DNA of 64,000 nucleotides from an uncultured SAR86 cluster bacterium. GTDB taxonomy: Bacteria > Pseudomonadota > Gammaproteobacteria > Magnimaribacterales > TMED112. A program made the position numbers and the translations under genes. Below the pieces are notes generated by a model that was given only the letters and a program-made list of their open reading frames with translations, had not been told where the DNA came from and ran no database searches. Below, piece by piece: positions 18,495-30,735 of this stretch. The stretch lies in assembly GCA_902579195.1 (NCBI GenBank), contig CACHFV010000001.1, positions 109,213 to 173,212 of the forward strand, written 5' to 3'. Position 1 is the stretch's first letter. Every line of letters begins with the position of its first letter.

Positions 18495-18575
18495 AGTGCA
18501 AAGGGGAGGCTATGCCTGAGATCTTTTTAGGAACCCTTTGAACCTGAACCATACAATGATGGCGGAGGAATTGCA
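18495..18575 (+). promoter_or_regulatory. TPP (THI-box) riboswitch
   Basis: tgcaa-AGGGGAGGCtatGCCTGAGA...ACCCTTTGAACCTGA-ACCATacaATGATGG-CGGAGGAA-ttgca matches the THI element cores CUGAGA, ACCCUUUGAACCUGA and GCG-AGGGA. P1 (18497..18501 with 18571..18575) closes onto the SD and the start codon. Confidence 0.85.
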
Positions 18576-20662
18576 TGAATAACATCATAAATTATCTATA
18601 TATTCTCGTTCTACTAGTGTCTTTAAGCATTTGTGCTGAAGAAGTTGAAGAAATAATTATCAAAGCAGACTGGCGCGAAGCACCTATTACAGACGGTGAT
18701 ACAAGTACCTTTGTGTTAAGTGGCAATGAAATCAAAGCACAACCAATAAAACATTTCGAGAACCTGTCGTATCTTGTCCCAAATTTAAATTTTGCTGCAA
18801 GTGATTCGAGAGCTAGGTATTTTCAAATTAGAGGCATAGGTGAAAGATCGGGTTATCTTGGCACACCTAACTCTTCTGTTGGCTTTTTAATTGATGATGT
18901 TGACTACTCAGGGCAAGGTGGTATCGCTACTTTGTTTGACGTCGATCAGGTTGAAGTCATTAGAGGTCCTCAGGCATCAAGAATTGGAGCCAATGCTCTT
19001 GCTGGACTAATTTATATTAAAACAAAAGAACCAACGGAAGAATTTGAAGCTAGTTCAGAAATAAACCTTGGATCTTATAACACTCAAAGTGCTGGCATAG
19101 CATTAAGTGGACCAGTGACAAAAAATAAAGACGTTAAATTCCGTTTTGTTGTTCGTCAGGATCAGTCCGATGGATTTCGTAAAAATTTGTTTTTAAATAA
19201 ATCAGACACATCTAGCAAAGATGAATTAACCCTTAGATTAAAAATTGATTTTAAACTATCAGAAACAAGCAACAGCAAACTACTTTTGAGTTCTGTCGAT
19301 ATGGATGATCCTGCAGATATATGGACTATAGACAATTCTCTCAATACATTGTCAGACAGACCAGGCATGGACTCACAAAAAACTGATACGCTCGGCTACA
19401 AGTACTTTAAAAAATTTGATCAGTTTGAATTGCAAAGCTTCACAAGCACCACTGATACATTTGTAGTATTTAGTTACGATGCAGATTGGGGAAATTCTGA
19501 ATCTCACGCTCCTTATACTTACGACTATTTTTCAGAAACCTTGCGAGATAGGCAATCATTTAATCAAGAGTTTAGGTTGGTTTCTAATTCAAATAATGTG
19601 CCCTTCAGTTGGGTATTGGGAACGACATTTCTATCGCTCGATGAAACAAATGATAGGCAAGATGATGGAATATATGGAGATCCCTCTGATCCATTTGGGC
19701 CGTATGAAAGCCTAACCATATCAAGCAGTGATTACAGTTCTAATAATTTATCTTTTTTTGGAAACATTGATTATGAGCTAGCTAAAGATTTAGTTATTTC
19801 ATTGGGTGTAAGAGCAGAAGAATGGAAAGCCAAATATTCAGATACTAATAATGAAAATTTTAATCTCTCCAATGATATGTTCGGAGGCAAGGTATCTGTG
19901 AGTTATTTGATGGAGAACATTGGAAATGCATATTTAAGTTACGCGAAGGGTTATAAACAAGGGGGATTTAACGTAGGTCTAGGACTATTAGGACAGGTAG
20001 ATCCAAATGAGCTTGAATATGACCCTGAATATTTAACAAATTATGAACTAGGCATTAATTCAAAGATCAGTGATTTTACAGATTTGAGCTTTAATATTTT
20101 TTATTCCCAGAGAGAGGATCAACAGGTATTGATTTCAACACAAGTTGACCCAAATGACCCCAACACTTTTGTTTATTTAACTCAAAATGCTGCAGAGGGC
20201 CTGAATTATGGGTTTGAAGGATCATTCGATACGCAATTAAATGACGCATTGTCTCTATTCCTAAATCTGGGGTATCTGGAGACCGAGATCAAAAATTGGG
20301 CTTCAAGGCCTGATATTGAGGGGAGAGAACAAGCACACGCACCAAAGTATAGTTTCTCTGCTGGAGCAGAATATTATTTCCAAGAAAATACTTCATTTGA
20401 AATTAACTTCATAGGGAAAAGTGGTTTCTACTATTCAGATTCACATAACAATAAATCTGACTCATACGTTTTAACTAATGCAGCTCTTCGTCATAGTGTT
20501 GATAACTGGGTGATTGATTTATGGGTGCAAAATCTATTCGATGAATATTACTCAACAAGAGGGTTCTTTTTTGGAAATGAAGCACCTGACTTTATAGATA
20601 CTCTTTATAGAAGGCACGGGGATCCAAGACACTTTGGGTTATCTGTAAGATATGATTTCTGA
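18575..20662 (+). CDS. TonB-dependent receptor, riboswitch-controlled (putative thiamine or thiamine-precursor receptor)
   Basis: Signal peptide, TonB box VEEIIIKAD, plug FQIRGIGERS...VEVIRGPQASRIGANALAGLIYI, and terminal HFGLSVRYDF. Confidence 0.9.
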   Translation: MNNIINYLYILVLLVSLSICAEEVEEIIIKADWREAPITDGDTSTFVLSGNEIKAQPIKHFENLSYLVPNLNFAASDSRARYFQIRGIGERSGYLGTPNSSVGFLIDDVDYSGQGGIATLFDVDQVEVIRGPQASRIGANALAGLIYIKTKEPTEEFEASSEINLGSYNTQSAGIALSGPVTKNKDVKFRFVVRQDQSDGFRKNLFLNKSDTSSKDELTLRLKIDFKLSETSNSKLLLSSVDMDDPADIWTIDNSLNTLSDRPGMDSQKTDTLGYKYFKKFDQFELQSFTSTTDTFVVFSYDADWGNSESHAPYTYDYFSETLRDRQSFNQEFRLVSNSNNVPFSWVLGTTFLSLDETNDRQDDGIYGDPSDPFGPYESLTISSSDYSSNNLSFFGNIDYELAKDLVISLGVRAEEWKAKYSDTNNENFNLSNDMFGGKVSVSYLMENIGNAYLSYAKGYKQGGFNVGLGLLGQVDPNELEYDPEYLTNYELGINSKISDFTDLSFNIFYSQREDQQVLISTQVDPNDPNTFVYLTQNAAEGLNYGFEGSFDTQLNDALSLFLNLGYLETEIKNWASRPDIEGREQAHAPKYSFSAGAEYYFQENTSFEINFIGKSGFYYSDSHNNKSDSYVLTNAALRHSVDNWVIDLWVQNLFDEYYSTRGFFFGNEAPDFIDTLYRRHGDPRHFGLSVRYDF

Positions 20663-21233
20663 TCTATTAAATTCAATATGGTTTGAAGTCTTTGCAGCAT
20701 TGTTGGCCATAACATATTTGGTTTTAGCAATGCAGCAAGATATTAGGTGTTGGATAGCATGGATCATAAGTTCAGTTATGTATTTCTTTGTCATGCTTAC
20801 AGCTGGACTGATAATGGAGGCTGCCCTGCAAATCTTTTATTTAATTATGGGGCTATATGGATGGAGTCAATGGAAGCGAAAAGCATCATCTCAAAGTTTA
20901 AATATCAAAACATGGACTTTGCGGCAACATTTTTCTGCACTGAGCCTGCTTTTTGTAGCTGTTGTTTGTTTTGGTTACCTTCTTACAGCAAATACAAATG
21001 CTGTATCACCATATATCGACTCATTTACAACATGGGGAGCCATCTTGGCTACCTATATGGTTGCAAAAAAAGTGCTTGAGAATTGGATCTATTGGTTTGT
21101 AGTTGATTTTGTATCAGTGTTCCTATTCTTAAGCAGAGAGCTTTATCCAACTGTTGTTTTGTTTGTTATATATTTAATAATTATTGTATTTGGCTACAAG
21201 GCTTGGCTGAAATCAATGAATACGCATGAGTAA
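20652..21233 (+). CDS. PnuC-family transporter (PnuT-like, putative thiamine permease)
   Basis: 193 aa with about 7 TM segments and the PnuC signature region QIFYLIMGLYGWSQWKR. It overlaps the TBDR gene by 11 nt. Confidence 0.8.
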   Translation: MISDLLNSIWFEVFAALLAITYLVLAMQQDIRCWIAWIISSVMYFFVMLTAGLIMEAALQIFYLIMGLYGWSQWKRKASSQSLNIKTWTLRQHFSALSLLFVAVVCFGYLLTANTNAVSPYIDSFTTWGAILATYMVAKKVLENWIYWFVVDFVSVFLFLSRELYPTVVLFVIYLIIIVFGYKAWLKSMNTHE

Positions 21234-22029
21234 TATTGAGAATTTTCTTAACACAGCTGAAAAAGATATTGCTTTGATAAAAACTATTCAGAAAACAAAA
21301 TTTTCAGAGGTTTATGAGTGCAGGTTGGATGGTAAGGATGCCATTCTTAAAATTAAGACAGACTATACCTTTGAAAACGACATTGGCATTGAAGAAATAA
21401 TTGTTAATCGACTTCACAAACTTAATTTAACACCGCGAATTTTACATGCTGATACACAAAAAAAAGTAGTGATATACGAAAAAGTGATTGGTTCTGATCT
21501 GAGCACAGTTCCTAAAGCAAATATTATCTCTAAATGCGCAAAGCAACTAAAGAAACTTCACAACTCAAATATTGTTTGTGACGATTGTAGTTCATTCAAG
21601 AGTAAAATTAAGAAATATGAGCATGCCATTGCTCAAAAAACGTCAAACTTATTCTATCGAAGTGCTTTCATGTTTATTTATAAGTTAGCAGCAAGGGATA
21701 AACATCAGGTGTTTTGTCATAATGATTTGAACTTATCCAACATAATGTATTCAGATGATATTTTTTTCATTGATTGGGATTATGCCGGTTTCAATCATCC
21801 TTATTTTGACCTCGCTCTACTTTTTAATGCTATGAATTTGACAAGCAATGAAGAATATAACTTTTTAAGCATCTATGCCGATCAGGAAAATAATATTGAT
21901 CACGATTTATTAAAAGAATATAAAAAAATGTCTTTGTACGTCGAATACTTATGGATTGTTGCAACATCTAGCCAAGAAAACCCCAAATACGCCACGCGTT
22001 TTGATGAGTTAACCACACTTCTTCGATAG
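21226..22029 (+). CDS. Choline/aminoglycoside-kinase-fold phosphotransferase, thiamine-kinase-like
   Basis: Brenner-type catalytic loop FCHNDLNLSNIM and metal-binding IDWDYAGFN. The size matches ThiK (about 270 aa). It overlaps the pnuC-like gene by 8 nt. Confidence 0.7.
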   Translation: MSNIENFLNTAEKDIALIKTIQKTKFSEVYECRLDGKDAILKIKTDYTFENDIGIEEIIVNRLHKLNLTPRILHADTQKKVVIYEKVIGSDLSTVPKANIISKCAKQLKKLHNSNIVCDDCSSFKSKIKKYEHAIAQKTSNLFYRSAFMFIYKLAARDKHQVFCHNDLNLSNIMYSDDIFFIDWDYAGFNHPYFDLALLFNAMNLTSNEEYNFLSIYADQENNIDHDLLKEYKKMSLYVEYLWIVATSSQENPKYATRFDELTTLLR

Positions 22030-22134: not shown

Positions 22135-23169
22135 ATGAAAATTGCAATAAATGGCTTCGGCAGAATCGGTAGAAATATCGTTCGTTCTTACTTATCAAAA
22201 GATCAGATTTGGAAAAAATTCAATCAAATTGAGATTGTGGCAATAAATGATTTAGGTTCTCCAGAACACAATGCACATTTATTGAAATATGATTCAGTTC
22301 ATGGAAAGCTGGCAAACCAAGTATCATCAACAGATAAATCAATATCCATTGATGGTAATGAGATTGCTTGTTTCAGCGAAAGAGATCCTAGCAATCTTCC
22401 ATGGAAAGAGTTAGGTGTTGATTTAGTTTTTGAATGCACAGGTTTCTTTGCATCCAAAGACGGATCTCAGAAACATCTTGATGCTGGTGCTAAAAGAGTA
22501 TTAATCTCTGCTCCAGCAAAAGGTGTTGATAAAACAATTGTTTACGGCGTCAACCACACATCTTTAACTAAGGATGATCTCGTAATTTCAAATGCATCAT
22601 GCACAACTAACTGTTTAGCTCCTCTTGCTAAAGTCATTAACGAAAAGTTTGGTATTGCAGATGGTTTAGCTAATACAATACATGCCTATACCAATGATCA
22701 ATCTTTACTTGATGTTTATCATTCAGATTTGCTGAGAGCAAGAGCTGCAGGTGTTTCTATGATTCCAACTAAGACAGGTGCAGCAAGTGCAGTTGGTCTT
22801 GTCCTCCCAGAATTAAATGGGAAATTGGATGGCTTAGCTATCAGAGTACCAGTTTCAAATGTATCGCTTCTAGATTTTACCTTCACATCAGAAAAATCAT
22901 TTAGTATTGATGAGCTAAATGAAGCTTTAGAAGCAGCAGCCACTAATGGTCTAAGTGGTGTTTTAGATATCAATAGCATTCCATTAGTAAGTACAGATTT
23001 CGGTGGTGATCCACATTCATCTATTTATGATAAATCTCACACCCGTCAGGTAGGTAATTCAACAAAAATTCTAGCCTGGTATGACAATGAGTGGGGCTTT
23101 TCAAACAGAATGTTAGATGTGGCTTCATATTTAAACCAGAACGTCTCACTTAAATCATTAGCTGCTTAA
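22135..23169 (+). CDS. gap: Glyceraldehyde-3-phosphate dehydrogenase
   Basis: NGFGRIGR, the active site SNASCTTNCLAP, and WYDNEWGFSNR. Confidence 0.95.
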   Translation: MKIAINGFGRIGRNIVRSYLSKDQIWKKFNQIEIVAINDLGSPEHNAHLLKYDSVHGKLANQVSSTDKSISIDGNEIACFSERDPSNLPWKELGVDLVFECTGFFASKDGSQKHLDAGAKRVLISAPAKGVDKTIVYGVNHTSLTKDDLVISNASCTTNCLAPLAKVINEKFGIADGLANTIHAYTNDQSLLDVYHSDLLRARAAGVSMIPTKTGAASAVGLVLPELNGKLDGLAIRVPVSNVSLLDFTFTSEKSFSIDELNEALEAAATNGLSGVLDINSIPLVSTDFGGDPHSSIYDKSHTRQVGNSTKILAWYDNEWGFSNRMLDVASYLNQNVSLKSLAA

Positions 23170-23207
23170 GTTCTTGAAATAAAAATACTAATACTTAGAT
23201 ACTCTAG

Positions 23208-23705
23208 ATGAGATTCTTATTAGTATTTTTATTTTCTATGTTCACATATGCTCAAAACTCTGACGATAAAGCCTCTTGGTATGTCTACACTGACCAGGTG
23301 ATGGGTGGCAAATCAAAATTAAGTGCAAGTTTTACGGAAGGTGTTGTAAAGCTTGATGGTGAAGTCACAACAAAAAATAATGGCGGCTTTGTTAGGTTAG
23401 CGCACAGACCTGACGAAATAAATAAAAATGCCAAGGGCATCAAATTCAAAGCCAAAGGCAACAACGAAGCTTATGAAGTTCACGTAACATTAAAGGGCAT
23501 GAAAATGCCACCTTGGTCATATCTGAGCACATCATTTGATGTAAATGATCAGTGGAATGAATACCAAATTCTATTTTCTGACCTCAAGAAAAACGGCATG
23601 ATGGCTGCATCCATGAAGCCTAAAAACATCAGAGAAATAAGCATTGCAGGCTACGGCCGTGATTTCAATGTTGATCTAGAGCTTAAAGATATCGAGCTGT
23701 TCTAA
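23208..23705 (+). CDS. CIA30-domain family protein (secreted)
   Basis: Signal peptide. DQVMGGKS and NNGGFVRL are typical of the complex I intermediate-associated protein 30 domain. Confidence 0.6.
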   Translation: MRFLLVFLFSMFTYAQNSDDKASWYVYTDQVMGGKSKLSASFTEGVVKLDGEVTTKNNGGFVRLAHRPDEINKNAKGIKFKAKGNNEAYEVHVTLKGMKMPPWSYLSTSFDVNDQWNEYQILFSDLKKNGMMAASMKPKNIREISIAGYGRDFNVDLELKDIELF

Positions 23706-23768
23706 AACCAAGAAAATTTTTGAACCTTTTTCCATTTTTCCGTTCCTAAATAATAAGGGGGCTGAAAT

Positions 23769-23915
23769 ATGGATAAAAATGAAAGGATGCAAAGGTCAGA
23801 GAGAGCACGTAATAGAAGGCACGAAAACCAACGCATCGTTGAAGAAAGAACTTTAAACTTTTATCAAAAATTAAAAAGAGAAAAAATTAAAAAGAAAAAG
23901 ACAAATCCTCATTAA
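23769..23915 (+). CDS. Possible small, highly basic protein (48 aa), unknown function
   Basis: Below the ORF-track cutoff. ATG is preceded by taagggggctgaaat (SD-like). Translation is MDKNERMQRSERARNRRHENQRIVEERTLNFYQKLKREKIKKKKTNPH. It fills an otherwise unusual 229-bp gap. Confidence 0.35.
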   Translation: MDKNERMQRSERARNRRHENQRIVEERTLNFYQKLKREKIKKKKTNPH

Positions 23916-23934
23916 ATGAGTAGTATCTTTTTAT

Positions 23935-24204
23935 ATGAAAAATCTCAGTAGACTTGTTTTTCTATTAAGTCTTTCCTTTTTTGGTCTAACCACGCTTGAT
24001 CAATCATCTCATGTTCTTGAAGATCATGGCAAAAGTGAGAATATTGAGCACGTTGCATGTGTTCTAGAAAACCCAGAGCCACAAACACTCGAAGTAGCTG
24101 TAAATAATTTTATTTCGTTTGATATTGAAGCTGGTCTATCAGTTTTTTTATACCCTTCTAAAGTTTATAGTTTTAACTCAAGAGCACCTCCAAGAGAATC
24201 TTAA
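23935..24204 (+). CDS. Small secreted protein, unknown function (His/Glu patch after the signal peptide)
   Basis: Signal peptide MKNLSRLVFLLSLSFFGL, then SSHVLEDHGKSENIEHVAC. It lies 39 nt upstream of the His-rich TBDR gene on the same strand. Confidence 0.5.
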   Translation: MKNLSRLVFLLSLSFFGLTTLDQSSHVLEDHGKSENIEHVACVLENPEPQTLEVAVNNFISFDIEAGLSVFLYPSKVYSFNSRAPPRES

Positions 24205-24243
24205 TCCCAATATTTTAGATTAAGTTTTTTTTAAGGAGGTAAA

Positions 24244-26364
24244 ATGAAAAAACATCAAATTTTAATTTTAATACTAAGCATTTCGAGCTTTTCACATGCT
24301 CAAGATGTTGAAGAAGTTGTAACTTCTGCTCTTGCAGACCCGTCGCAAATTGAAAATCCACTCCATTTGGTTAAAAGTGTTGATTTGGAGGCTGAGCCGA
24401 CCACTAGTTTAGGCGAAGCTTTAGATAATTTAGCAGGGGTAGGTTCTGCTGACTATGGTGCTGCTATTGGCCAGCCAATTATTAGAGGCCTATCTGGCGC
24501 ACGGATAAAAGTACTAAATAATGGGTTAGTTGTTAGAGATGTTGCAGGCATTGGTGCTGATCATCCTAATGACATAGATCTTAGCAATGCTTTACAGGTC
24601 GAAGTAGTTAGAGGTCCATCTTCATTGCTTTATGCAAATGGAACCATTGGTGGAATTATAAATGTTGTCGACAATTCAATTGCAAAAAGCGATTTTGATG
24701 GCTTTTCTGGAAGTCTTGGTTATGAAATGCAGGAAGTCAATGATGGCAGTGTTTCAACCTATAACTTCCAGCATAATGTTGCCGGTCTTAACTTTTATCT
24801 AAGTGGGTTAGATTCCGATTTTGAAAATTACGTAACTCCAAGAGGTTCTGTTATTGAAGATGGAATGAAAGCTGATGAAAGCATCGTAATGAATTCTGAT
24901 TCAGCCGCTGAGACAGGTAAATTTGGAGTTTCTAAGACAGGAGATTGGGGCTACATAGGCATGTCACTATCATCTGCGGAAAGAGTTCATGGTATCCCTT
25001 TTCATGGTGAAGAGGATGATGAACACGAAGGTGAAGAGCATGATGAGCATGAAGGCGAAAGAATATTTGCCATGACTGAATCTGATATCTTCACTTTGCA
25101 GGGTTCATTGAACTTAGGTAATGGTTTAGTAAACAAAGTTGATTACTTCTTAACAACTTCAGAATATTCATTGATGGAACAGCATGCCGAAGAGCAAGGT
25201 GAAGAGCATGAAGGCGAAGATCATGATGAGCATGAAGGCCATAGTGAAGAGCCAGCATTATTCACAAATGATGCGACAGAATTTGGAATGATTTTTGATC
25301 TATCGAATGATAAGCGTACTCAAAAAATATCCATGAATTTTGCTGAAGAAGAAATGGTAATAGCTGGCGAGGAAGCATTTATGCAACCAACAATGAGTGA
25401 AGAGTTTACTATTGGTTATTTTATGAGCCAAGATATTGGTACTGCTCACCTTGATTTTGGAATCAGGTTTGATGACATTACAAGAGATGGTTCAGTCGCT
25501 GAAATGCACCATGAAGATGAGGATCATGATGAGGATCATGAAGGTGAAGAAGAAGTGGAGGATTATAGCTTTAACTATTCAACCACAAATTACTCCCTTC
25601 AACTGACCCAAAGTTTAACTGATAAATTATCTTTCGTTTTAAGTGGCACAAGTGCAGATAGAGCTCCTGGAGCACAAGAATTATTCATGAATGGCCCACA
25701 TTTAGCTACAAGACGTTTTGAAGTTGGAAATGTAAATCTTAATCCTGAAAAGTCTAATAACCTTGATATGTCATTGAATTATAGCGATGGAGGTATTTTT
25801 GCTAAATACACTGTTTATGTAAATAACGTGAATGACTTTATCTACTTGTTGGATGAGTCAGATGAAGATCATGAAGAGCATGAAGAAGAGCATAGTGGGC
25901 TTACATTAGCAGAGTATCTGCAAAATGATGCAAAGTTCACAGGTTATGAATTTGAATTGGGTAATAGCTATCAATTAGAAAATGGCACACTTACTGCAAC
26001 TGTTGGCTTAGATGCTGTTGAAGGTAAGCTTAAAGATTCACAAATGTTTGTGCCTCGTATGATGCCTAAGAGAAGATTCATGAATCTTGATTATGTTTCT
26101 GGTGATTACTCTGCTGGAGTTTCTTATAAAGAAGTTCAACCACAAGATAATGTAGCAGAAGGTGAAACTGGAACTGATGGGTATAGAATGCTGGATCTTG
26201 ATGCCTCTAAATCTTATGACTTAGGCGATGGCGTAACATTCAGATCGTCCGTATTCATTAAAAACCTTCTTGATGAAACAGCTAGAAACCATACTTCATT
26301 TGTAAAAAATGAGGTTCCACTAGCTGGCAGAAATGTTGGTTTCAAATTTAGAATTACTTTCTAA
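24244..26364 (+). CDS. TonB-dependent receptor with four His/Glu/Asp-rich insertions (ZnuD-like, putative metal receptor)
   Basis: Strong SD aaggaggt, signal peptide, TonB box VEEVVTSAL, plug IIRGLSGARIKVLNNG...VEVVRGPSSLLYANGTIGGIINV, and terminal FKFRITF. The inserts are HGEEDDEHEGEEHDEHEGE, HAEEQGEEHEGEDHDEHEGHSEE, HHEDEDHDEDHEGEEEVED and DESDEDHEEHEEEHSG. Confidence 0.9.
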   Translation: MKKHQILILILSISSFSHAQDVEEVVTSALADPSQIENPLHLVKSVDLEAEPTTSLGEALDNLAGVGSADYGAAIGQPIIRGLSGARIKVLNNGLVVRDVAGIGADHPNDIDLSNALQVEVVRGPSSLLYANGTIGGIINVVDNSIAKSDFDGFSGSLGYEMQEVNDGSVSTYNFQHNVAGLNFYLSGLDSDFENYVTPRGSVIEDGMKADESIVMNSDSAAETGKFGVSKTGDWGYIGMSLSSAERVHGIPFHGEEDDEHEGEEHDEHEGERIFAMTESDIFTLQGSLNLGNGLVNKVDYFLTTSEYSLMEQHAEEQGEEHEGEDHDEHEGHSEEPALFTNDATEFGMIFDLSNDKRTQKISMNFAEEEMVIAGEEAFMQPTMSEEFTIGYFMSQDIGTAHLDFGIRFDDITRDGSVAEMHHEDEDHDEDHEGEEEVEDYSFNYSTTNYSLQLTQSLTDKLSFVLSGTSADRAPGAQELFMNGPHLATRRFEVGNVNLNPEKSNNLDMSLNYSDGGIFAKYTVYVNNVNDFIYLLDESDEDHEEHEEEHSGLTLAEYLQNDAKFTGYEFELGNSYQLENGTLTATVGLDAVEGKLKDSQMFVPRMMPKRRFMNLDYVSGDYSAGVSYKEVQPQDNVAEGETGTDGYRMLDLDASKSYDLGDGVTFRSSVFIKNLLDETARNHTSFVKNEVPLAGRNVGFKFRITF

Positions 26365-26464
26365 TTCTTAGTCGATCTAACTAGGGTCTTTGCACCTCGC
26401 TGGCCCTAGTTAGGTGTTTACAAGTGCATAAAGATAAAGCAAAATTCAAGCTTAAACTTTTCAT

Positions 26465-26881
26465 ATGTATAACGATCAATATAAGTCTGACAGAATAGCA
26501 GCCTCAATGTCGCTGATTTGTGTGTTGCATTGCTTGTTTGTGCCTTCTTTCTTTATTGCAGTTTCAAGCACTTCTGCTTTAACTATCGATAATGACATCA
26601 TTCATTACTTACTATTAATTGTTACTCTTCCTGTGAGCTTATATGCCCTGCACCTTGGGTTAAAAAATCATAAGAAAAAAGGAGTTTTCGCCCTTGGCAT
26701 TACTGGGCTAGTGCTCTTTGTTTTGGCTGTGTTATTTGGCGAGGTTTACGCCGGTGAAACAGGAGAGCAAGTTGTCACAGTAATAGCCTCTTTGATAGTG
26801 ATTTATGCTCACTATCAAAACTTCCAAATTTGTCGAAAGCTTGAGTGCTCATCATGCCATAGTTCTGTTGCAGAAAAGTAG
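26465..26881 (+). CDS. MerC-domain-like small membrane protein with a Cys/His-rich tail
   Basis: 4 predicted TM segments. The TM1 motif SLICVLHCLFVPS resembles MerC-domain proteins. The C-terminal tail is CRKLECSSCHSS. Confidence 0.6.
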   Translation: MYNDQYKSDRIAASMSLICVLHCLFVPSFFIAVSSTSALTIDNDIIHYLLLIVTLPVSLYALHLGLKNHKKKGVFALGITGLVLFVLAVLFGEVYAGETGEQVVTVIASLIVIYAHYQNFQICRKLECSSCHSSVAEK

Positions 26882-26916
26882 CAGTTAATAAAACAAATTA
26901 ATTTATAATATATATA

Positions 26917-27735
26917 ATGAAAACTAATGCTTTTGTTCTGATTTTTATCTCCTTGCTAGCATTGCCTGAAACAAAAGGACATCAAGGATTAATGGCAACT
27001 TTATTTGTTCAAAAATCTGCCGAGTTTTACAGCAATTCTATTGGCATTTATAACTCTGCTATGGATAAACTACCAGCACTTGTAGAGGATAAAAATTATA
27101 CAGCTGCCCTTGAACAAACTTCAGGGTTTTCTGGGAAACCACCTGCTGTAATTTTAGATATAGATCAGACTGTATTAGACAACATAGCCTATCAAGCTCG
27201 TTTAATTGAAAATGGAAAATATTATCCTGATGGTTGGGATGCTTGGTGTATGGAAGAAAAAGCTTATTACATTCCCGGTGTAGAGCAGTATCTTGCTCTT
27301 GCAATTAGCCTTGGTGTAGAAGTGTTCTTTGTTACTAATCGCACAGCAAACCTTGAAGAAGCAACAAGGAACAATTTAGAAAAACTGGGATTTTCATTTT
27401 CAACAAAACTAGATCAGCTTCTTATGAAAGGCGAGAAGCCAGAATGGACTTCCGATAAAACATCAAGACGTCAGCTTATTGCTGATGATTATCGCATTGT
27501 CATGATGATTGGCGATAATTTTGGTGATTTTGTTAGCTTAGATGTGAATCGATCATCAACAGAGCAAAGAAATGATGCAGCTAAAGCATACAATGAAATG
27601 TGGGGACATAGCTGGTTTATGCTTGCAAACCCAACTTATGGTGATTGGGAAAGCGCTTTCATTGGTTTTGATTATGGCATTCCAAGATCAAAACAGCTTG
27701 AGATGAAGCTAAAGGCCTTAGATCAGCAAAGATGA
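26917..27735 (+). CDS. Class C (e(P4)-like, HAD superfamily) acid phosphatase / 5-prime-nucleotidase, secreted
   Basis: Bipartite DDDD signature VILDIDQTVLDNIAY and VMMIGDNFGDF. It has a signal peptide without a lipobox Cys. Confidence 0.8.
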   Translation: MKTNAFVLIFISLLALPETKGHQGLMATLFVQKSAEFYSNSIGIYNSAMDKLPALVEDKNYTAALEQTSGFSGKPPAVILDIDQTVLDNIAYQARLIENGKYYPDGWDAWCMEEKAYYIPGVEQYLALAISLGVEVFFVTNRTANLEEATRNNLEKLGFSFSTKLDQLLMKGEKPEWTSDKTSRRQLIADDYRIVMMIGDNFGDFVSLDVNRSSTEQRNDAAKAYNEMWGHSWFMLANPTYGDWESAFIGFDYGIPRSKQLEMKLKALDQQR

Positions 27736-28982
27736 AGTTTCTAAAATATTTTTTTGTAGCACTTTTGTCGATCGTAGTCACTTTAATCGCAGTTAATCAA
27801 TATGTACCTGTTCTTATCGATGTGCCAAAAAAAGATAGATTGCTTATCGATTTTAATTTTGGAAAGAAAATCACCAATAAAGAACTTATCCCTGTAGAAA
27901 GAAAAGCTAAAAATATAATACTTCTAATTGGTGATGGGTTGGGGAGCAATCAAATTGTTGCCTATAAGATAGCTAAAGAAGGGCCAAATGCCATAACTGC
28001 TTTTGATGTGTTTCCTGTATCAGGACTTGTTAAGACGCATGCTTATAACACATTAGTAACCGACTCAGCATCATCTGCTACAGCTTACAGCTCTGGCACA
28101 AAAACGATCAATCGATATGTGGGAGTGGATCATGAAAAAAATCCAGTCACCAATATTACAGAATTGCTTCATAAAAAAGCTTATGTAAACAGCATAATTG
28201 CAACATCTGAAATCACTCATGCAACGGTAGCCGCTTTTGCTGCACACACAGAATCTCGGTACAACACAGACGCTATTGCCGAGCAAATATTTTATTCAAA
28301 TAATTATTTTGTATTGGGTGGTGGATCTGACTTCTTTAAAATAAAAGAGGATGGCGGTTTAAGAGAGGATGGAAAGGATTATTTGAGCAAAATTAAAACT
28401 GATGAAATCCTTTTAGAAACAAAAAACGATTTAGTTAACCATAGATTTAAAAAGGGTAAGAAAATTTTTGGGCTATTCAATAAAGAGGAACTAATTAGAG
28501 AAGCACACGAACCTTCACTGAAAGAAATGCTTGATTTTGCTTTAGTTAATTCAAACTCAATGCTTGAGCAGGGGTGCAAAGGATTTTTCATTTTGGCAGA
28601 GGGTTCACAGATTGATTGGGAAGGTCATGATAATGATTTCTATGGACAATACGATGAAATAGAAGAATTTGAGAATGCGATTACAAGTGCATTAGCTTTT
28701 GCAAAGAATAGAGAAGATACTCTCGTTCTGGTGACGGCAGATCATGAAACAGGAGGCCTGCTGATCGAAAAAGATACTCTCAGATATAAAGAAACCAATC
28801 AGATGAAAGTTTCGTGGAATACTGCTATTGGTAAAGGCGATCATACAGGCGCAATGGTACCAATCTTCGCATATGGCCCTGGCTCAGAAAACTTCACAGG
28901 GATTCTGGACAATACAGATATATTCTTTGCTATGCAGGAAGCTATAGGTATTAATGATCTGCCTGATGGTACATGCTACTAG
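27732..28982 (+). CDS. Alkaline phosphatase (PhoA family)
   Basis: Active-site region VTDSASSATAYSSGTKT, then EGSQIDWEGHDN and TADHETGG. It has an N-terminal anchor or signal and an ATGA overlap with the acid phosphatase gene. Confidence 0.85.
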   Translation: MKFLKYFFVALLSIVVTLIAVNQYVPVLIDVPKKDRLLIDFNFGKKITNKELIPVERKAKNIILLIGDGLGSNQIVAYKIAKEGPNAITAFDVFPVSGLVKTHAYNTLVTDSASSATAYSSGTKTINRYVGVDHEKNPVTNITELLHKKAYVNSIIATSEITHATVAAFAAHTESRYNTDAIAEQIFYSNNYFVLGGGSDFFKIKEDGGLREDGKDYLSKIKTDEILLETKNDLVNHRFKKGKKIFGLFNKEELIREAHEPSLKEMLDFALVNSNSMLEQGCKGFFILAEGSQIDWEGHDNDFYGQYDEIEEFENAITSALAFAKNREDTLVLVTADHETGGLLIEKDTLRYKETNQMKVSWNTAIGKGDHTGAMVPIFAYGPGSENFTGILDNTDIFFAMQEAIGINDLPDGTCY

Positions 28983-29027
28983 CTTGGCATTTAGGCTAAT
29001 CTAGTATAAATTTCAGTTGTGGTTGCA

Positions 29028-30260
29028 ATGAAAGGACAAAACAAAAACGCTTTATTTTCCGGCCTTTTTTTCTTCATGGTTCTCTTCTCTCTTTTTGTGA
29101 TGAGGCCTTTCAGAAGTGCGGTTGCTGCCCAAATTGGGACTGCTGACTTAACCTTTTTTCTTTTTCTTGTCGTTCTAGTGATGTTATTTGCTAATTTTAT
29201 TTACTCAGCTGTTGTATCAAGAATCAAAGAATCACGACTAGTTCTGTATATTTATGGTTTCTTTATCCTGAACTTAGTTGTCTTTGCTTATTTAAATTTC
29301 TATTACGAGAGTAACTATACCCTTGGGGCAACATTTTATGTTTGGTACAACATATTCAACTTTTTTGTTGTTTCTATCTTTTGGGCAAAAATAGTTAACT
29401 GTTTTGATAGAACAGAAGGTAATAAACTTTTTGGGATCATAAGTGCCTTTGGTTCTGCCGGAGCGTTTGTTGGTTCACGAACGGTTGCATCATATTTAAC
29501 TGATGCTCCAGTTACGGCTATCACTTTCTCATTGATTGCTTTGATGTTGGCAATTTTTTTCTCATCAAAACTAAAACCTACCAATACTACCAAGATCAAA
29601 AAGAAGGAGATATCTATAGATCTAGTTGATCAAATAAATCAGGTTAAAAATAATCCATTGGTTCAAAAGTTACTAACCTATGCTTTTATTTGGACATGTT
29701 GCTCAACCGCACTGTATTTCTTTAGCCTCGAGATCATAAATAAATACACAAACGACATTGTCGAGCAGCGCGCAATATTCGCTGATGCCGACAGTCTGGT
29801 AACACCAATAACTTTCTTTTCTCAGATCTTAATCACACGCTTCTTATTAGAAAGTAGATTTTTTGGCTTGAAGTTTGTGCTTGGCATTTATGGTGTTTTG
29901 TTCGTGATTGCCTATTTAATGATGGCTGGTCACTTTGCAGATTTTCTCTTTACAGGTACTGGTGTTCTTTTATTCTTAATCATCTCTGCTTTAATGCGAC
30001 CGTTTGAATATGCCATCAATAAGCCAGCGCGAGAGACAGTTTATACCACCCTAAAAAAATCAGAAAAATATAGATCAACTGTGTTCATTGATACATTCAT
30101 TAACCGTTTTGGCGATGCTTCTGGAGGTTTATTGTTTAATATTCTTTTAACCTTGGGACTTACTTTAGCTATAGCGCCACTGGCAATTTTGCCTTTAGCT
30201 TTTGTTCTTTCGGGGTTTGGCGTAAATATTTCAAAAAGTGTCAAAGACGTTAAATCTTAG
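29028..30260 (+). CDS. MFS-like permease resembling the nucleotide transporter (TLC/NTT) family
   Basis: About 11-12 TM segments. LFVMRPFRS at the N-terminus and the loop ARETVYTTLKKSEKYRSTVFIDTFINRFGDASGG resemble the conserved TLC-family loop. The ORF track starts at GTG 29019, and I prefer ATG 29028. Confidence 0.55.
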   Translation: MKGQNKNALFSGLFFFMVLFSLFVMRPFRSAVAAQIGTADLTFFLFLVVLVMLFANFIYSAVVSRIKESRLVLYIYGFFILNLVVFAYLNFYYESNYTLGATFYVWYNIFNFFVVSIFWAKIVNCFDRTEGNKLFGIISAFGSAGAFVGSRTVASYLTDAPVTAITFSLIALMLAIFFSSKLKPTNTTKIKKKEISIDLVDQINQVKNNPLVQKLLTYAFIWTCCSTALYFFSLEIINKYTNDIVEQRAIFADADSLVTPITFFSQILITRFLLESRFFGLKFVLGIYGVLFVIAYLMMAGHFADFLFTGTGVLLFLIISALMRPFEYAINKPARETVYTTLKKSEKYRSTVFIDTFINRFGDASGGLLFNILLTLGLTLAIAPLAILPLAFVLSGFGVNISKSVKDVKS

Positions 30261-30330: not shown

Positions 30331-30735
30331 ATGCTAACAAAAGAAAAAATTTTAAAAGCTCCTAAGAAGAATTATATGAACAAGGATCAGCTTGTTTTTT
30401 TTCAATCTCTACTGAATGACTTAAAGCAAGAAACTTTAACGCACATAAGAGAAGCAAAAGATAGATTAAGCAATCCTCCGTCATGCAGCGATGAGGTAGA
30501 CAGAGCACAACACGAAATTGATTCAATGCTATTTTTACGCATAGTGGAAAGAGAATCTAAACTTCTACCAAAGATTGATAAAGCAATCATGCGTATCAAA
30601 GCTGGTGATTATGGTTTTTGCCTTGAAACAGGAGAACCAATTGGTCTAGAGAGATTAATTTCACGTCCAACAGCAGAATATTGTGCAGAAGTGAAAACAA
30701 TCAACGAAGAAAAAGAAAAGCACTTCGTCGATTAA
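30331..30735 (+). CDS. dksA: RNA polymerase-binding factor DksA, two-cysteine (DksA2-like) form
   Basis: Coiled-coil tip DEVDRAQ (DxxDxA). The C-terminal region FCLETGEPIGLERLISRPTAEYCAEV aligns with the E. coli CxxC-N17-CxxC finger but reads CxxT-N17-CxxV. Confidence 0.85.
   Translation: MLTKEKILKAPKKNYMNKDQLVFFQSLLNDLKQETLTHIREAKDRLSNPPSCSDEVDRAQHEIDSMLFLRIVERESKLLPKIDKAIMRIKAGDYGFCLETGEPIGLERLISRPTAEYCAEVKTINEEKEKHFVD

What the first reader, a model, noticed from the sequence alone, without database searches (positions are those of the whole stretch)
23935..26881. His/Glu-studded TonB receptor flanked by a small secreted His-patch protein and a MerC-like membrane protein: candidate ABC-independent metal import system
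Seen in sequence. Three co-oriented genes are involved. (a) An 89-aa secreted protein has SSHVLEDHGKSENIEHVAC just after its signal peptide. (b) A 706-aa TBDR carries four insertions made only of H, E, D and G. (c) A 138-aa 4-TM protein has a MerC-like TM1 motif (LICVLHCLFVPS) and a Cys/His tail (CRKLECSSCHSS). Established knowledge is that His/Asp-rich loops are the hallmark of zinc receptors such as ZnuD, and that MerC moves Hg(II) across the inner membrane through Cys ligands. I infer an outer-membrane metal receptor (Zn, or Co/Ni/Cd) coupled to a MerC-fold inner-membrane carrier in place of a ZnuABC-type ABC system, possibly with a periplasmic shuttle. To my knowledge this combination has not been tested experimentally. 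I found no Zur or Fur box upstream, so the regulation is unknown.
Basis: partly seen in the sequence, partly recalled or inferred. Interest (0 to 1): 0.75.

Follow-up and report, generated by a model that had tools for sequence, protein, structure and literature searches.

The report
Metal-uptake operon with ribosome-stalling leader
A marine SAR86 bacterium encodes a zinc-type (ZnuD-like) outer-membrane receptor followed by a non-mercury MerC-type membrane protein that in other bacteria sits inside zinc-starvation gene clusters, and the small "secreted His protein" in front looks like a ribosome-stalling leader peptide that switches the receptor on, which points to an untested zinc carrier and an untested metal sensor.

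Summary
In detail: all three ORFs, their motifs and the four His/Glu inserts are real.

- **Receptor:** it belongs to the ZnuD family. ZnuD is the best profile, sequence and fold match, and three of four mapped zinc ligands are conserved. The inserts lie in extracellular loops L3, L4, L6 and L8 and vary in length by tandem-repeat slippage.
- **MerC:** the 138-aa protein passes the Pfam MerC threshold but belongs to a distant, non-mercury subfamily with a C-x2-H-C motif in TM1. In 42 of 71 relatives it directly follows a TonB receptor. Elsewhere it sits between Zur, ZnuD-like receptors, ZigA/COG0523, ZrgA and DUF1826, so zinc handling at the inner membrane is well supported by context. The transport direction and independence from ABC systems are not shown.
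- **89-aa ORF:** I reinterpret it as a CruR/CutF-type leader rather than a shuttle. It has an export signal, a His/Cys patch and an invariant RAPP three codons before the stop. The RAPP codons pair with the receptor's Shine-Dalgarno sequence, and a ribosome stalled there would unmask it (17 of 19 junctions against 3 of 54 controls). This would explain why there is no Zur box.

Copper is the main rival metal. Nothing has been tested experimentally. Novelty: a new variant of known kinds.

The parts
23935..24204 (+). 89-aa leader ORF (CruR/CutF-like). It has an N-terminal export signal or TM segment (residues ~1-22), a His/Cys patch from H26 to C42 (nt 24010-24060), then S-R-A-P-P-R-E-S-stop.
   Evidence: ORF. 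No Pfam or NCBIfam hit, even at E<=10. Across clades only H26, C42 and R83/P85/P86 are invariant. It is the only RAPP/RGPP in the window's 62 proteins. In the related loci all 24 occurrences are at the C-termini of these small ORFs.
24181..24192 (+). R-A-P-P codons (AGA GCA CCT CCA), the putative ribosome-arrest site. CCUCC (24187-24191) is the anti-Shine-Dalgarno.
   Evidence: Sequence. RAPP/RGPP arrest motifs are described in PMC10951233, PMC12992588 and PMC9426467.
24186..24240 (+). mRNA stem-loop that pairs the RAPP codons with the receptor's Shine-Dalgarno (GGAGG, 24235-24239).
   Evidence: MFE -18.2 kcal/mol, z = -4.46, 0 of 200 shuffles as stable. P(SD unpaired) is 0.001 in the free mRNA and 0.94 with a ribosome footprint on RAPP. 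Cross-clade energetics.
24244..26364 (+). 706-aa ZnuD-family TonB-dependent outer-membrane receptor, with a signal peptide, a TonB-box-like VEEVVTSA, a plug and a 22-strand barrel.
   Evidence: Pfam Plug and barrel. Best NCBIfam hit is ZnuD at 246 bits. PDB sequence hit ZnuD at 1.2e-44, and 2.7e-59 by profile. Foldseek top hit 4RDR, E 2.8e-32, TM 0.73. AF2 model.
25003..25059 (+). His/Glu/Asp insert 1, in extracellular loop L3 (residues 254-272). It begins where ZnuD's peripheral Zn site H241-x-H243-x-x-D246 aligns.
   Evidence: 24-nt tandem repeat. Indel hotspot.
25189..25242 (+). His/Glu/Asp insert 2, in extracellular loop L4 (residues 316-333).
25507..25554 (+). His/Glu/Asp insert 3, in extracellular loop L6 (residues 422-437).
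25861..25893 (+). His/Glu/Asp insert 4, in extracellular loop L8 (residues 540-550).
26375..26415 (+). Strong hairpin in the receptor-MerC spacer. It has no clear U-tract, so it may be an attenuator, a processing site or a stabilising element.
   Evidence: The folded 109-nt spacer region scores -30.3 kcal/mol with z = -4.42. A hairpin of unrelated sequence sits at the same position in L071 (z = -4.08). The Zur-type loci lack it and have a 14-nt gap instead.
26465..26881 (+). 138-aa inner-membrane protein of a non-mercury MerC subfamily. It has four TM helices, C19-x2-H22-C23 in TM1, H47, H69, E101, H116-x2-N119, and a cytoplasmic Cys/His tail (C123, C128, C131, H132).
   Evidence: Pfam MerC at 88 bits. 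Conserved columns. AF2 pLDDT 83.6 with helices 3-37, 43-69, 72-95, 97-125 and 129-136. Context census.
26917..30260 (+). Downstream co-oriented genes, syntenic only in this clade and in the clade of L041: an e(P4)-type acid phosphatase, a PhoA-type alkaline phosphatase (a Zn enzyme, by established knowledge) and an MFS-like protein. Whether they belong to the system is uncertain.

Best explanation
This is a three-part metal-acquisition module, most likely for zinc.

1. The 706-aa protein is a ZnuD-family TonB-dependent receptor. Its expandable His/Asp/Glu loops L3, L4, L6 and L8 capture metal at the cell surface and feed a conserved buried site (plug D106/H107 and barrel H486).

2. The 138-aa protein belongs to a non-mercury MerC subfamily. 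By analogy with MerC's thiol relay, it passes the metal from the periplasm to the cytoplasm. The proposed path runs from acidic and His residues at the periplasmic face (E101, H47), to C19/H22/C23 in mid-membrane, to H116/N119/H69 and the Cys/His tail on the cytoplasmic side. In other genomes a ZigA/COG0523 chaperone is encoded next to it.

3. The 89-aa ORF is a CruR/CutF-type leader rather than a shuttle. While it is being exported, the ribosome arrests at R-A-P-P. The arrested ribosome covers the CCUCC anti-SD, so the stem-loop that hides the receptor's Shine-Dalgarno cannot form and the receptor is translated. Metal binding by the already exported His/Cys patch would relieve the arrest and shut the system off, with CruR-like polarity.

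Shown here: the family assignments, the loop topology, synteny, the zinc-regulon context of relatives, motif invariance and the RNA energetics. Inferred: which metal, the transport direction, the arrest itself and its polarity.
For: Receptor:
- ZnuD is the best NCBIfam hit (246 bits, against 63 for the copper receptor model).
- ZnuD is the best PDB match by sequence and by profile (1.2e-44 and 2.7e-59) and the best fold match (4RDR, E 2.8e-32).
- ZnuD ligands D99/H100 and H499 map to D106/H107 and H486, which are invariant in 39 orthologs.
- Insert 1 starts at ZnuD's peripheral loop-3 Zn site.
- All four inserts lie in odd-to-even strand connections. 17 of 25 His are in extracellular loops and none in periplasmic turns.
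- The receptor has no Cys.

MerC:
- Pfam MerC scores above its threshold.
- In 42 of 71 relatives with a visible upstream gene, MerC directly follows a co-oriented TBDR. Two receptor types at 27-29% identity to each other are involved.
- L064: ZrgA/ABC/FtsX/DUF3299 lie divergent from Zur-like, ZnuD-like TBDR, MerC, ZigA (690 bits against a cutoff of 600) and DUF1826, with a conserved Zur-type palindrome.
- Thalassotalea has DUF1826-ZrgA-Fur-MerC-CobW. Microbulbifer has DUF1826-TBDR-MerC. L117 has Fur-MerC-CobW plus leader-TBDR-MerC. Catenovulum has MerC beside DUF3299/ABC.
- The S. maltophilia homolog lies next to a COG0523 gene and is under selection in the CF lung (PMC5253648).

Leader:
- The architecture matches CruR: an export signal, a Cys motif, 40-44 residues, then RAPP 2-3 residues before the stop, as the first gene before a TBDT.
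- RAPP/RGPP uORFs are known to be enriched upstream of TBDR genes.
- RAPP/RGPP occurs nowhere else in 62 + 623 proteins.
- The hairpin from the end of the leader to the SD has z = -2.5 to -4.5 in 5 of 6 clades.
- Opening the RBS costs 9.9 kcal/mol at RAPP junctions against 4.1 at controls, falling to 3.6 with a stalled ribosome. Relief is at least 3 kcal/mol in 17 of 19 junctions against 3 of 54 controls (p = 3e-10).
Against: - There is no experiment of any kind.
- Pfam DUF2946 (the CruR/CutF family) does not hit any of six leader sequences, even at E<=10.
- The window's leader has H-x-x-C rather than CXXC.
- L031 lacks a stable hairpin (z = +0.6).
- Pro-Pro codons are inherently anti-SD-like, and CCU is a common codon in an AT-rich genome, so codon choice is uninformative.
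- The 19 junctions represent only about 5-6 independent clades.
- All characterised CruR/CutF leaders sense copper.
- MerC is missing next to the orthologous receptor in sister SAR86 clades and in SAR92/Porticoccaceae.
- A strong hairpin and a promoter-like site separate the receptor from MerC here.
- Other MerC paralogs sit with HMA/MerT-like/CsoR-family genes or with ArsR/SmtB and an efflux ATPase, so neither the metal nor the direction is fixed by family.
- The receptor scores far below the ZnuD equivalog cutoff (246 against 950), and the E340 equivalent could not be mapped.
- No Zur box and no zinc-regulon genes occur in this window.
Confidence: 0.55

Rival explanations
1. The module handles copper (or another thiophilic or borderline metal such as Co, Ni or Cd) rather than zinc. 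It would then be a CruR-type copper-sensing leader, a copper-chelate receptor and a Cys-based MerC carrier, parallel to cruR-crtA-PepSY_TM.
For: Both characterised leaders of this kind, CruR and CutF, respond to copper, and DUF2946-headed operons are mostly copper-related. OprC is the second-best structural match. One SAR86 MerC paralog sits with His-rich HMA, MerT-like, CsoR/RcnR-family and PepSY_TM-like genes. Cys ligands suit Cu(I).
Against: The ZnuD model outscores the copper receptor model, 246 bits against 63. The receptor has no Cys and no OprC-type site, while three ZnuD zinc ligands are conserved. The leader patch is His-dominated (IHDHxHE, or H..DH..H..C) rather than CXXC. Sister MerC clades lie in Zur/ZigA/ZrgA/DUF1826 clusters. 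DUF2946 genes also head a zinc-efflux operon in Caulobacter.
Confidence: 0.15
2. One reading: the 89-aa product is a functional periplasmic His-patch metal shuttle or chaperone between the receptor and MerC, and the RAPP tail and RNA pairing are incidental.
For: It has an export signal and a conserved His/Cys patch. The full-length protein is presumably released after arrest is relieved, so a second role is possible.
Against: Outside H26, C42 and RAPP almost nothing is conserved, with 18-32% identity, which is unlike a folded binding protein. RAPP is strongly avoided in proteomes, yet here it is invariant and always 2-3 residues from the stop. SD-sequestering hairpins are conserved in different sequences. 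The leader persists where MerC is absent.
Confidence: 0.12
3. MerC is not the receptor's inner-membrane partner. It would be an independently transcribed metal-homeostasis protein, for example one that supplies or buffers metal for the periplasmic phosphatases downstream, or one involved in detoxification, placed next to the receptor by lineage-specific rearrangement.
For: A strong hairpin and a promoter-like site lie between the receptor and MerC. MerC is absent from the same slot in L013-L017 and L031. MerC is followed at 35 nt by e(P4) and PhoA. PhoX and PhoD lie near MerC in Thalassotalea and Catenovulum. Tolypothrix has MerC with ArsR/SmtB and an efflux ATPase.
Against: TBDR-MerC adjacency recurs with two unrelated ZnuD-like receptor types within SAR86, and with further His-run receptors in GC 48-54% lineages. 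That is hard to explain by chance. The promoter-like site count is below the shuffle expectation.
Confidence: 0.15

Closest known systems
ZnuD of Neisseria meningitidis (PDB 4RDR/4RDT/4RVW; PMC4557270)
   Same: A TonB-dependent plug and 22-strand barrel. It is the best match by sequence, profile and fold. The plug D-H pair and the barrel G-x-H-x-A-T His of the buried Zn site are conserved. The His/Asp/Glu cluster at the start of loop 3 is in the homologous position.
   Different: Only about 21% identity, and far below the NCBIfam ZnuD cutoff. It has four His/Glu/Asp loops (L3, L4, L6, L8) instead of one, encoded by slippage-prone tandem repeats. There is no Zur box, and the gene is preceded by a RAPP leader.
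cruR-crtA(bfrG)-bp2921 operon of Bordetella pertussis (PMC9426467, PMC12914433)
   Same: The order is the same: a small exported leader with a Cys motif and a C-terminal RAPP, then a TonB-dependent transporter, then a four-TM inner-membrane protein. There is no Fur-family box, and metal-dependent post-transcriptional control works through translation arrest.
   Different: The leader is not recognised by Pfam DUF2946 and has a His-rich patch. The intergenic region is 39 nt with an SD-masking hairpin, rather than 162 nt with a Rho terminator. The receptor is ZnuD-like rather than of the CrtA family. The inner-membrane protein is MerC rather than PepSY_TM. The likely metal is zinc rather than copper.
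CutF-CutO of Rhodobacter capsulatus (bioRxiv 10.1101/2025.02.05.636593; PMC9973294)
   Same: A co-translationally secreted metal-sensing leader whose C-terminal proline motif stalls the ribosome. The stalled ribosome melts a stem-loop that shields the downstream gene's ribosome-binding site. This is the RNA design predicted here.
   Different: CutF uses PPP and is sensitive to EF-P. Copper induces its stalling to switch on a detoxifying oxidase. Here the motif is RAPP, the downstream gene is an uptake receptor, and the expected polarity is the opposite.
MerC of Tn21-type mer operons (Pfam PF03203)
   Same: The Pfam profile is matched. It is a four-helix inner-membrane protein with paired Cys in TM1 and Cys near the C-terminus.
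   Different: The plasmid search (tblastn, E<=1) returned only 4 records, all chromosomal-type homologs and none of them a mer operon. The TM1 motif is C-x2-H-C, where canonical MerC has C-A-A-C (recalled from memory). Conserved His, Glu and Asn residues are added. No merR, merT, merP or merA lies nearby, and the context is a TonB receptor or Zur/ZigA/ZrgA genes.
Zur-regulated zinc-starvation islands (ZrgABCDE, ZigA/COG0523, DUF1826, ZnuD-like TBDRs)
   Same: Relatives of this MerC are embedded in such islands, with Zur-type palindromes, in SAR86-like and Alteromonadales genomes.
   Different: This window has no Zur, ZigA, ZrgA or DUF1826 gene and no Zur box. Control appears to have been handed to the leader peptide.

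Membership tests
ZnuD-type zinc TonB-dependent receptor | Plug domain plus 22-strand barrel, with a TonB box | tested here: met
   Pfam Plug and TonB_dep_Rec barrel. 22 strands in the AF2 model. VEEVVTSA follows the signal peptide.
ZnuD-type zinc TonB-dependent receptor | Scores above the NCBIfam NF038289 (ZnuD) cutoff | tested here: not met
   246 bits against a cutoff of 950. It is still the best of 21 families. So this is a relative of the neisserial protein, not an equivalog.
ZnuD-type zinc TonB-dependent receptor | Buried high-affinity Zn site (D99/H100/E340/H499 in ZnuD) | tested here: inconclusive
   D106/H107 and H486 align and are invariant in 39 orthologs. The E340 equivalent lies in an unalignable, insert-rich region.
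ZnuD-type zinc TonB-dependent receptor | His/Asp/Glu-rich extracellular loop 3 | tested here: met
   Insert 1 is L3 and starts at the ZnuD H241/H243/D246 position. L4, L6 and L8 also carry inserts.
ZnuD-type zinc TonB-dependent receptor | Zur-dependent, zinc-repressed expression | tested here: not met
   No Zur-type box lies within 5 mismatches near the cluster. Actual expression is not testable here.
ZnuD-type zinc TonB-dependent receptor | Zinc transport | not testable with these tools
   Needs uptake or growth assays.
MerC (PF03203) | Profile match above the gathering score | tested here: met
   88.1 bits against 27.6, covering profile positions 1-107 of 108.
MerC (PF03203) | Four transmembrane helices | tested here: met
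   AF2 pLDDT 83.6 with helices 3-37, 43-69, 72-95 and 97-125. The N-in/C-in orientation is inferred from the positive-inside rule (KNHKKK loop).
MerC (PF03203) | TM1 Cys pair as in mercury-transporting MerC (C-x2-C, recalled from memory) | tested here: inconclusive
   The motif here is C19-x2-H22-C23, with C-x3-C spacing and an inserted His. It is invariant across the subfamily.
MerC (PF03203) | mer operon context (merR, merT/P, merA) and detectable similarity to Tn21 MerC | tested here: not met
   No mer genes lie nearby. The plasmid search returned only four records at E<=1, none from a mer operon.
MerC (PF03203) | Hg(II) transport | not testable with these tools
CruR/CutF leader peptides (Pfam DUF2946, PF11162) | Match to the PF11162 profile | tested here: not met
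   No hit for six family members, even at E<=10.
CruR/CutF leader peptides (Pfam DUF2946, PF11162) | C-terminal RAPP about three residues before the stop | tested here: met
   RAPP-RES-stop here. RAPP or RGPP plus 2-3 residues in every relative. It is unique in the proteome sample.
CruR/CutF leader peptides (Pfam DUF2946, PF11162) | Exported, with a CXXC metal motif about 45 residues before RAPP | tested here: inconclusive
   A hydrophobic N-terminal signal is present. The motif is H-V-A-C here and CxxC, CxxF or DxxC in other clades, with a spacing of 40-44. No signal-peptide predictor was available.
CruR/CutF leader peptides (Pfam DUF2946, PF11162) | First gene of an operon with a TonB-dependent transporter | tested here: met
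   It lies 37-52 nt upstream of the receptor in all SAR86 and Porticoccaceae loci.
CruR/CutF leader peptides (Pfam DUF2946, PF11162) | Metal-modulated translation arrest that controls the downstream gene | not testable with these tools
   Only in-silico support is available: SD masking that a ribosome on RAPP would relieve.

The most novel reading that the evidence does not exclude
Two things would be new. First, a nascent, exported His/Cys-patch leader peptide would be the first zinc-responsive translation-arrest sensor, replacing Zur at this locus in a streamlined marine genome. Second, the MerC-fold protein it controls together with the receptor would be a previously unrecognised class of inner-membrane zinc importer, widespread in Gammaproteobacterial Zur regulons and working alongside the COG0523/ZigA chaperone. 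It would need neither an ABC transporter nor a ZIP protein.
Probability: 0.3. Interest if true: 0.85.

Novelty: new variant of a known kind. Interest (0 to 1): 0.72.

Why it matters
How zinc crosses the inner membrane after TonB-dependent uptake is known only for ABC (ZnuABC, ZrgABCDE) and ZIP systems. A small MerC-fold permease that recurs next to Zur, ZigA/COG0523 and ZnuD-like receptors would add a new carrier class. It would also suggest a membrane partner for the poorly understood COG0523 chaperones.

The S. maltophilia homolog is already known to be under positive selection in the cystic fibrosis lung, and no function has been assigned to it.

The leader would extend CruR/CutF-type sensing by a nascent chain across the membrane from copper to zinc. 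It would also show how an abundant, uncultured, genome-streamlined ocean bacterium (SAR86) can regulate trace-metal uptake without a dedicated transcription factor at the locus.

Cultured carriers exist (Thalassotalea, Microbulbifer, Stenotrophomonas), so both ideas can be tested directly.

Tried and rejected
- **Zur/Fur operator.** I derived a SAR86-type Zur box from L064 and L084 and scanned the whole window, along with generic gammaproteobacterial templates. Nothing appeared near the cluster.
- **Known RNA elements.** The Rfam scan of 23100-27000 gave only sub-threshold chance hits inside the repeat DNA.
- **DUF2946 membership of the leader.** No Pfam or NCBIfam hit.
- **Zinc-regulon genes in the window.** No Zur, ZigA, ZrgA or DUF1826 was found. 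ZnuABC and ZupT elsewhere in the genome could not be examined.
- **Metagenome scan with broad MerC alignments.** It failed twice for lack of a conserved stretch. A 6-sequence alignment worked, but it biases the census towards relatives at 40% identity or more.
- **Genome scan with a single receptor sequence.** It reached only 19 loci, and an alignment would have reached further.
- **Synonymous-codon test of the RAPP:SD pairing.** The native codons rank 5th of 64, but the pairing depends on CCU, a common codon, so the test is not informative.
- **Mean SD unpaired probability.** Too blunt a measure, so I replaced it with opening energies.
- **Fold search of the MerC model against the PDB.** No meaningful match.
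- **Mapping ZnuD E340.** It failed because the region does not align.
- **One fold of L106.** I used wrong coordinates, and the result should be ignored.
- **The idea that receptor-MerC adjacency is specific to this genus.** Searches suggested it, and the wider census overturned it.

Full report
**Observation.** The three co-oriented ORFs are present exactly as described. They are an 89-aa ORF (23935-24204), a 706-aa ORF (24244-26364) and a 138-aa ORF (26465-26881). The quoted motifs are all there. The four receptor inserts are residues 254-272, 316-333, 422-437 and 540-550, built almost only of H, E, D and G, with one Q. The window is about 36% GC and comes from the SAR86 cluster. A SAR86 single-cell genome and several marine contigs carry the same block at 88-100% protein identity. 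In these same-genus genomes the order is fixed: GAPDH, CIA30, a 48-aa ORF, the 89-aa ORF, the receptor, MerC, e(P4), PhoA, an MFS-like gene and DksA.

**The receptor.**
- Pfam finds Plug and barrel domains.
- The best NCBIfam model is ZnuD at 246 bits (E 1e-72). That is far below the model's equivalog cutoff of 950 but well above the copper-receptor model at 63 bits.
- ZnuD is the best solved relative by sequence (1.2e-44), by profile (2.7e-59) and by fold (4RDR, E 2.8e-32, TM 0.73; OprC comes next at about 1e-24).
- With an offset of 14 between the PDB chain index and the paper's numbering, ZnuD's buried-site residues D99/H100 and H499 (PMC4557270) align to D106/H107 and H486. All three are invariant in 39 orthologs. 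E340 lies in a region that does not align.
- ZnuD's peripheral loop-3 site, H241-x-H243-x-x-D246, aligns to the start of insert 1.
- The AlphaFold model is of moderate quality (pLDDT 64, pTM 0.68), but the barrel strands are confident. It has 22 strands. Every even-to-odd connection is 2-7 residues long, as expected for periplasmic turns. The four inserts fall in the odd-to-even connections L3, L4, L6 and L8. 17 of 25 His are in extracellular loops and none in turns.
- All length differences among close relatives (699-739 aa) fall in these four loops, and the DNA there is short tandem repeat with periods of 24, 15, 12 and 9 nt. The capture loops expand and contract by slippage.
- The receptor has no Cys.

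**The MerC-like protein.**
- It passes Pfam MerC (88 bits against 27.6), and the model shows four long helices (pLDDT 83.6).
- It is nevertheless remote from mercury-operon MerC. A plasmid-wide tblastn at E<=1 returns only four chromosomal-type homologs.
- The family is large, with 1,672 representative clusters at E<=1e-3.
- Its hallmark residues are C19, H22 and C23 in TM1, plus P27, H47, H69, E101, T105, H116, N119 and a Cys-rich tail.

**Synteny.** The first look suggested that MerC adjacency was limited to this genus. A second SAR86 clade (L013-L017), L031 and SAR92/Porticoccaceae keep the small ORF and the receptor but have no MerC within 7-8 kb. A wider census reversed that impression. 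Among 80 metagenomic loci with MerC relatives at 40-100% identity, 71 show the upstream gene. In 42 of those it is a co-oriented TonB receptor 14-100 nt away. In 37 cases it is the His-rich ortholog of this receptor (42-99% identity). In 5 it is a different ZnuD-like receptor (27-29% identity, no His runs).

That second type sits in a textbook zinc-starvation island (L064, L084, L060). On one strand lie ZrgA (146 bits), an ABC ATPase, an FtsX permease and DUF3299. On the other lie a Fur-family protein whose best hit is Zur, the receptor (ZnuD, 333 bits), MerC, ZigA (690 bits against a cutoff of 600) and DUF1826. A 21-nt palindromic box, GTAATGTAATAACATTACAAA, is conserved in L064 and L084 in an otherwise diverged spacer.

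The context extends beyond SAR86:
- Thalassotalea euphylliae has DUF1826-ZrgA-Fur-MerC-CobW, next to DUF3299/ABC/FtsX and PhoX.
- Microbulbifer has DUF1826, a His-run receptor and MerC.
- A lineage at GC 48.5% (L116, L117) has a leader, a 725-aa His-run receptor (26% identity) and MerC. L117 also has Fur-MerC-CobW about 2 kb away.
- Catenovulum has MerC beside DUF3299/ABC/permease and PhoD.
- Chung et al. noted a 'distant merC homologue' in S. maltophilia next to a P47K/COG0523 gene. It was under positive selection in the CF lung, with mutations at TM1 C24 and L16. They proposed no zinc role (PMC5253648).

I found no paper linking MerC to Zur, COG0523 or zinc uptake.

There are counter-examples. 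One SAR86 paralog lies in a cluster of HXXEE, MerC, an unannotated gene, a His-rich HMA protein, a MerT-like protein, a CsoR/RcnR-family repressor and a PepSY_TM-like protein. Tolypothrix has ArsR/SmtB-MerC divergent from a P-type ATPase. A 24%-identical alphaproteobacterial homolog has no metal context. A neighbour-joining tree separates these context groups.

**The 89-aa ORF.** It has no Pfam or NCBIfam family, but homologs precede the orthologous receptor in several lineages:
- every SAR86 clade;
- SAR92/Porticoccaceae;
- a Lysobacterales MAG;
- the GC-48% lineage;
- possibly a flavobacterium.

Overall identity is only 18-32%. The invariant positions are one His, one Cys and R-(A/G)-P-P, always 2-3 residues before the stop. 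Other clades show a mature N-terminus such as D-S-L-I-H-D-H-F/H-H-E followed by C-x-x-C/F. The Cys motif lies 40-44 residues before RAPP.

This is the architecture of CruR (DUF2946): an export signal, CXXC, 45 residues, then RAPP three residues from the end, as the first gene of an operon with a TonB-dependent transporter and a four-TM inner-membrane protein. In CruR, arrest at RAPP keeps the operon on, and copper sensed by the nascent chain relieves the arrest (PMC9426467).

Fujiwara et al. showed that RAPP and RGPP give robust, EF-P-resistant arrest and are excluded from proteomes. They also found these motifs enriched at the C-termini of small secreted proteins encoded upstream of TonB-receptor genes (PMC12992588). 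In CutF, the stalled ribosome melts a stem-loop that hides the downstream ribosome-binding site.

In this window RAPP occurs once in 20,542 residues, in this ORF. In 623 proteins from related loci, all 24 occurrences are these C-termini.

**RNA test.** The RAPP codons AGA GCA CCU CCA contain CCUCC, which is complementary to the receptor's GGAGG 44 nt downstream.
- The segment 24178-24246 folds into a stem-loop (24186-24240) at -18.2 kcal/mol, z = -4.46.
- The probability that the SD is unpaired is 0.001 in the free RNA and 0.94 when nucleotides -12 to +15 around the stall site are blocked.
- Hairpins of different sequence but the same design occur in four other clades (z = -2.5 to -4.5). L031 is the exception.
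- Opening the receptor's ribosome-binding site costs a median 9.9 kcal/mol at 19 distinct RAPP junctions, against 4.1 at 54 other co-oriented junctions from the same loci (p = 6e-8). A ribosome on RAPP lowers this to 3.6. Relief is at least 3 kcal/mol in 17 of 19 junctions against 3 of 54 controls (p = 3e-10).

Three caveats apply. The 19 junctions represent about five or six independent clades. Pro-Pro codons are intrinsically anti-SD-like. Codon choice alone is uninformative.

No Rfam family matches the leader or the spacers. A second strong hairpin (26375-26415, z = -4.4) separates the receptor from MerC, and an unrelated-sequence counterpart occupies the same position in another clade.

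**Which metal.**

For zinc:
- the receptor's ZnuD affinities and conserved ligands;
- loops rich in His and carboxylates, with no Cys;
- the His-dominated leader patch;
- the Zur/ZigA/ZrgA/DUF1826 context of sister MerC clades;
- a Zn-dependent PhoA two genes downstream (zinc dependence by established knowledge).

For copper:
- every characterised leader of this type senses copper;
- one paralog sits with CsoR-family and HMA genes.

DUF2946 genes also head a Zur-activated zinc-efflux operon in Caulobacter (PMC4176598), so the leader type is not strictly tied to copper. I put zinc at roughly three to one over other metals.

**Model.** At low periplasmic metal, the ribosome translating the leader stays arrested at RAPP. 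The SD-masking helix cannot form, and the receptor is made. MerC may be made too, depending on read-through of the spacer hairpin. Surface loops concentrate metal and pass it to the buried site. TonB-driven plug movement releases it to the periplasm. The MerC-type protein then relays it through its Cys/His ladder to the cytoplasm. When metal is sufficient, the exported His/Cys patch binds it, the arrest is released, the helix re-forms and translation of the receptor stops.

The family assignments, topology, synteny, motif invariance and RNA energetics are shown. The metal, the transport direction, the arrest and its polarity are inferred by analogy with ZnuD, MerC, CruR and CutF.

**Verdict.** Its 'shuttle' is better read as a regulatory leader, which also answers its open question about regulation. 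'ABC-independent' remains unproven, because relatives of this MerC coexist with Zrg-type ABC systems.

Public annotation does not recognise any of this. The leader is labelled 'hypothetical', the receptor 'iron complex receptor', and MerC is called 'OafA/YrhL O-acetylase' by one source.

Each part is a new member or variant of a known kind. The combination, and a zinc role for a MerC-fold protein, appear undescribed and can be tested in cultured relatives.

Noticed in passing
window 23769-23915 (+): A 48-aa, very basic ORF (MDKNERMQRSERARNRRHENQRIVEERTLNFYQKLKREKIKKKKTNPH) with a good RBS lies just upstream of the leader. The protein is identical in all same-genus loci, and all four nucleotide substitutions are synonymous third-position changes. 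The exact sequence is on at least 999 public contigs. It has no family and is absent in L031.
   Followed up: partly
window 30331-30735 (+): The DksA homolog has C-x2-T ... C-x2-V in place of the C4 zinc finger. This is the pattern of zinc-independent DksA2 paralogs (recalled from memory). It is syntenic with the cluster in all relatives, including L031.
   Followed up: partly
window 26375-26415 (+); L071 ~5940-5980: Strong hairpins occupy the receptor-MerC spacer in two SAR86 clades (z = -4.4 and -4.1) with unrelated sequences and no clear U-tract. A promoter-like TTTACA-17-CAAAAT follows at 26417-26445, although the promoter scan as a whole is below chance.
   Followed up: partly
window 25003-25893 (four segments): The His/Glu loop DNA is short tandem repeat (periods 24, 15, 12 and 9 nt). 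Every indel among close relatives falls in these four loops, which suggests slippage-driven variation in loop length between strains.
   Followed up: yes
window 18575-22029 (+): A second TonB receptor (siderophore-like) is translationally coupled to a PnuC-family transporter and an APH/thiamine-kinase-like kinase. This looks like a vitamin or nucleoside salvage module. The e(P4)-type phosphatase downstream of MerC (26917-27735) may relate to it functionally.
   Followed up: no
window 27732-28982; L113 12765-14162; L118 12791-15175: Alkaline phosphatases of three different families lie near MerC/zinc clusters: PhoA here, PhoX in Thalassotalea and PhoD in Catenovulum. This could be coincidence or a link between phosphorus scavenging and trace-metal supply.
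   Followed up: no
L008 and L010 (genome contigs): Contigs carrying this SAR86 block at 88-90% protein identity are filed under MAGs named 'Crocinitomicaceae bacterium' and 'Methanobacteriota archaeon'. This is probably a binning error.
   Followed up: no
L051 5400-8776: A different SAR86 MerC paralog lies in a cluster of HXXEE, MerC, a 207-aa gene, a His-rich HMA protein, a MerT-like protein, a CsoR/RcnR-family repressor and a PepSY_TM-like protein. It resembles a mer-type transport cluster without a reductase.
   Followed up: partly
L013 6617-7949; L071 2373-3710: In the second SAR86 clade the leader ORF overlaps, or follows within 9 nt, a Zn-type alcohol dehydrogenase gene. An 863-868-aa second TonB receptor follows the receptor (L013) or MerC (L071).
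   Followed up: no
window 26465-26881 (public annotation): One public source names this exact protein 'peptidoglycan/LPS O-acetylase OafA/YrhL', and the receptor is called an 'iron complex outermembrane receptor'. Both are probably mis-annotations.
   Followed up: no
L117 2023-3916 and 5347-8396: Two MerC paralogs lie within 5 kb in one non-SAR86 genome. One is in a Fur-MerC-CobW operon and the other follows an RGPP leader and a His-run receptor.
   Followed up: partly
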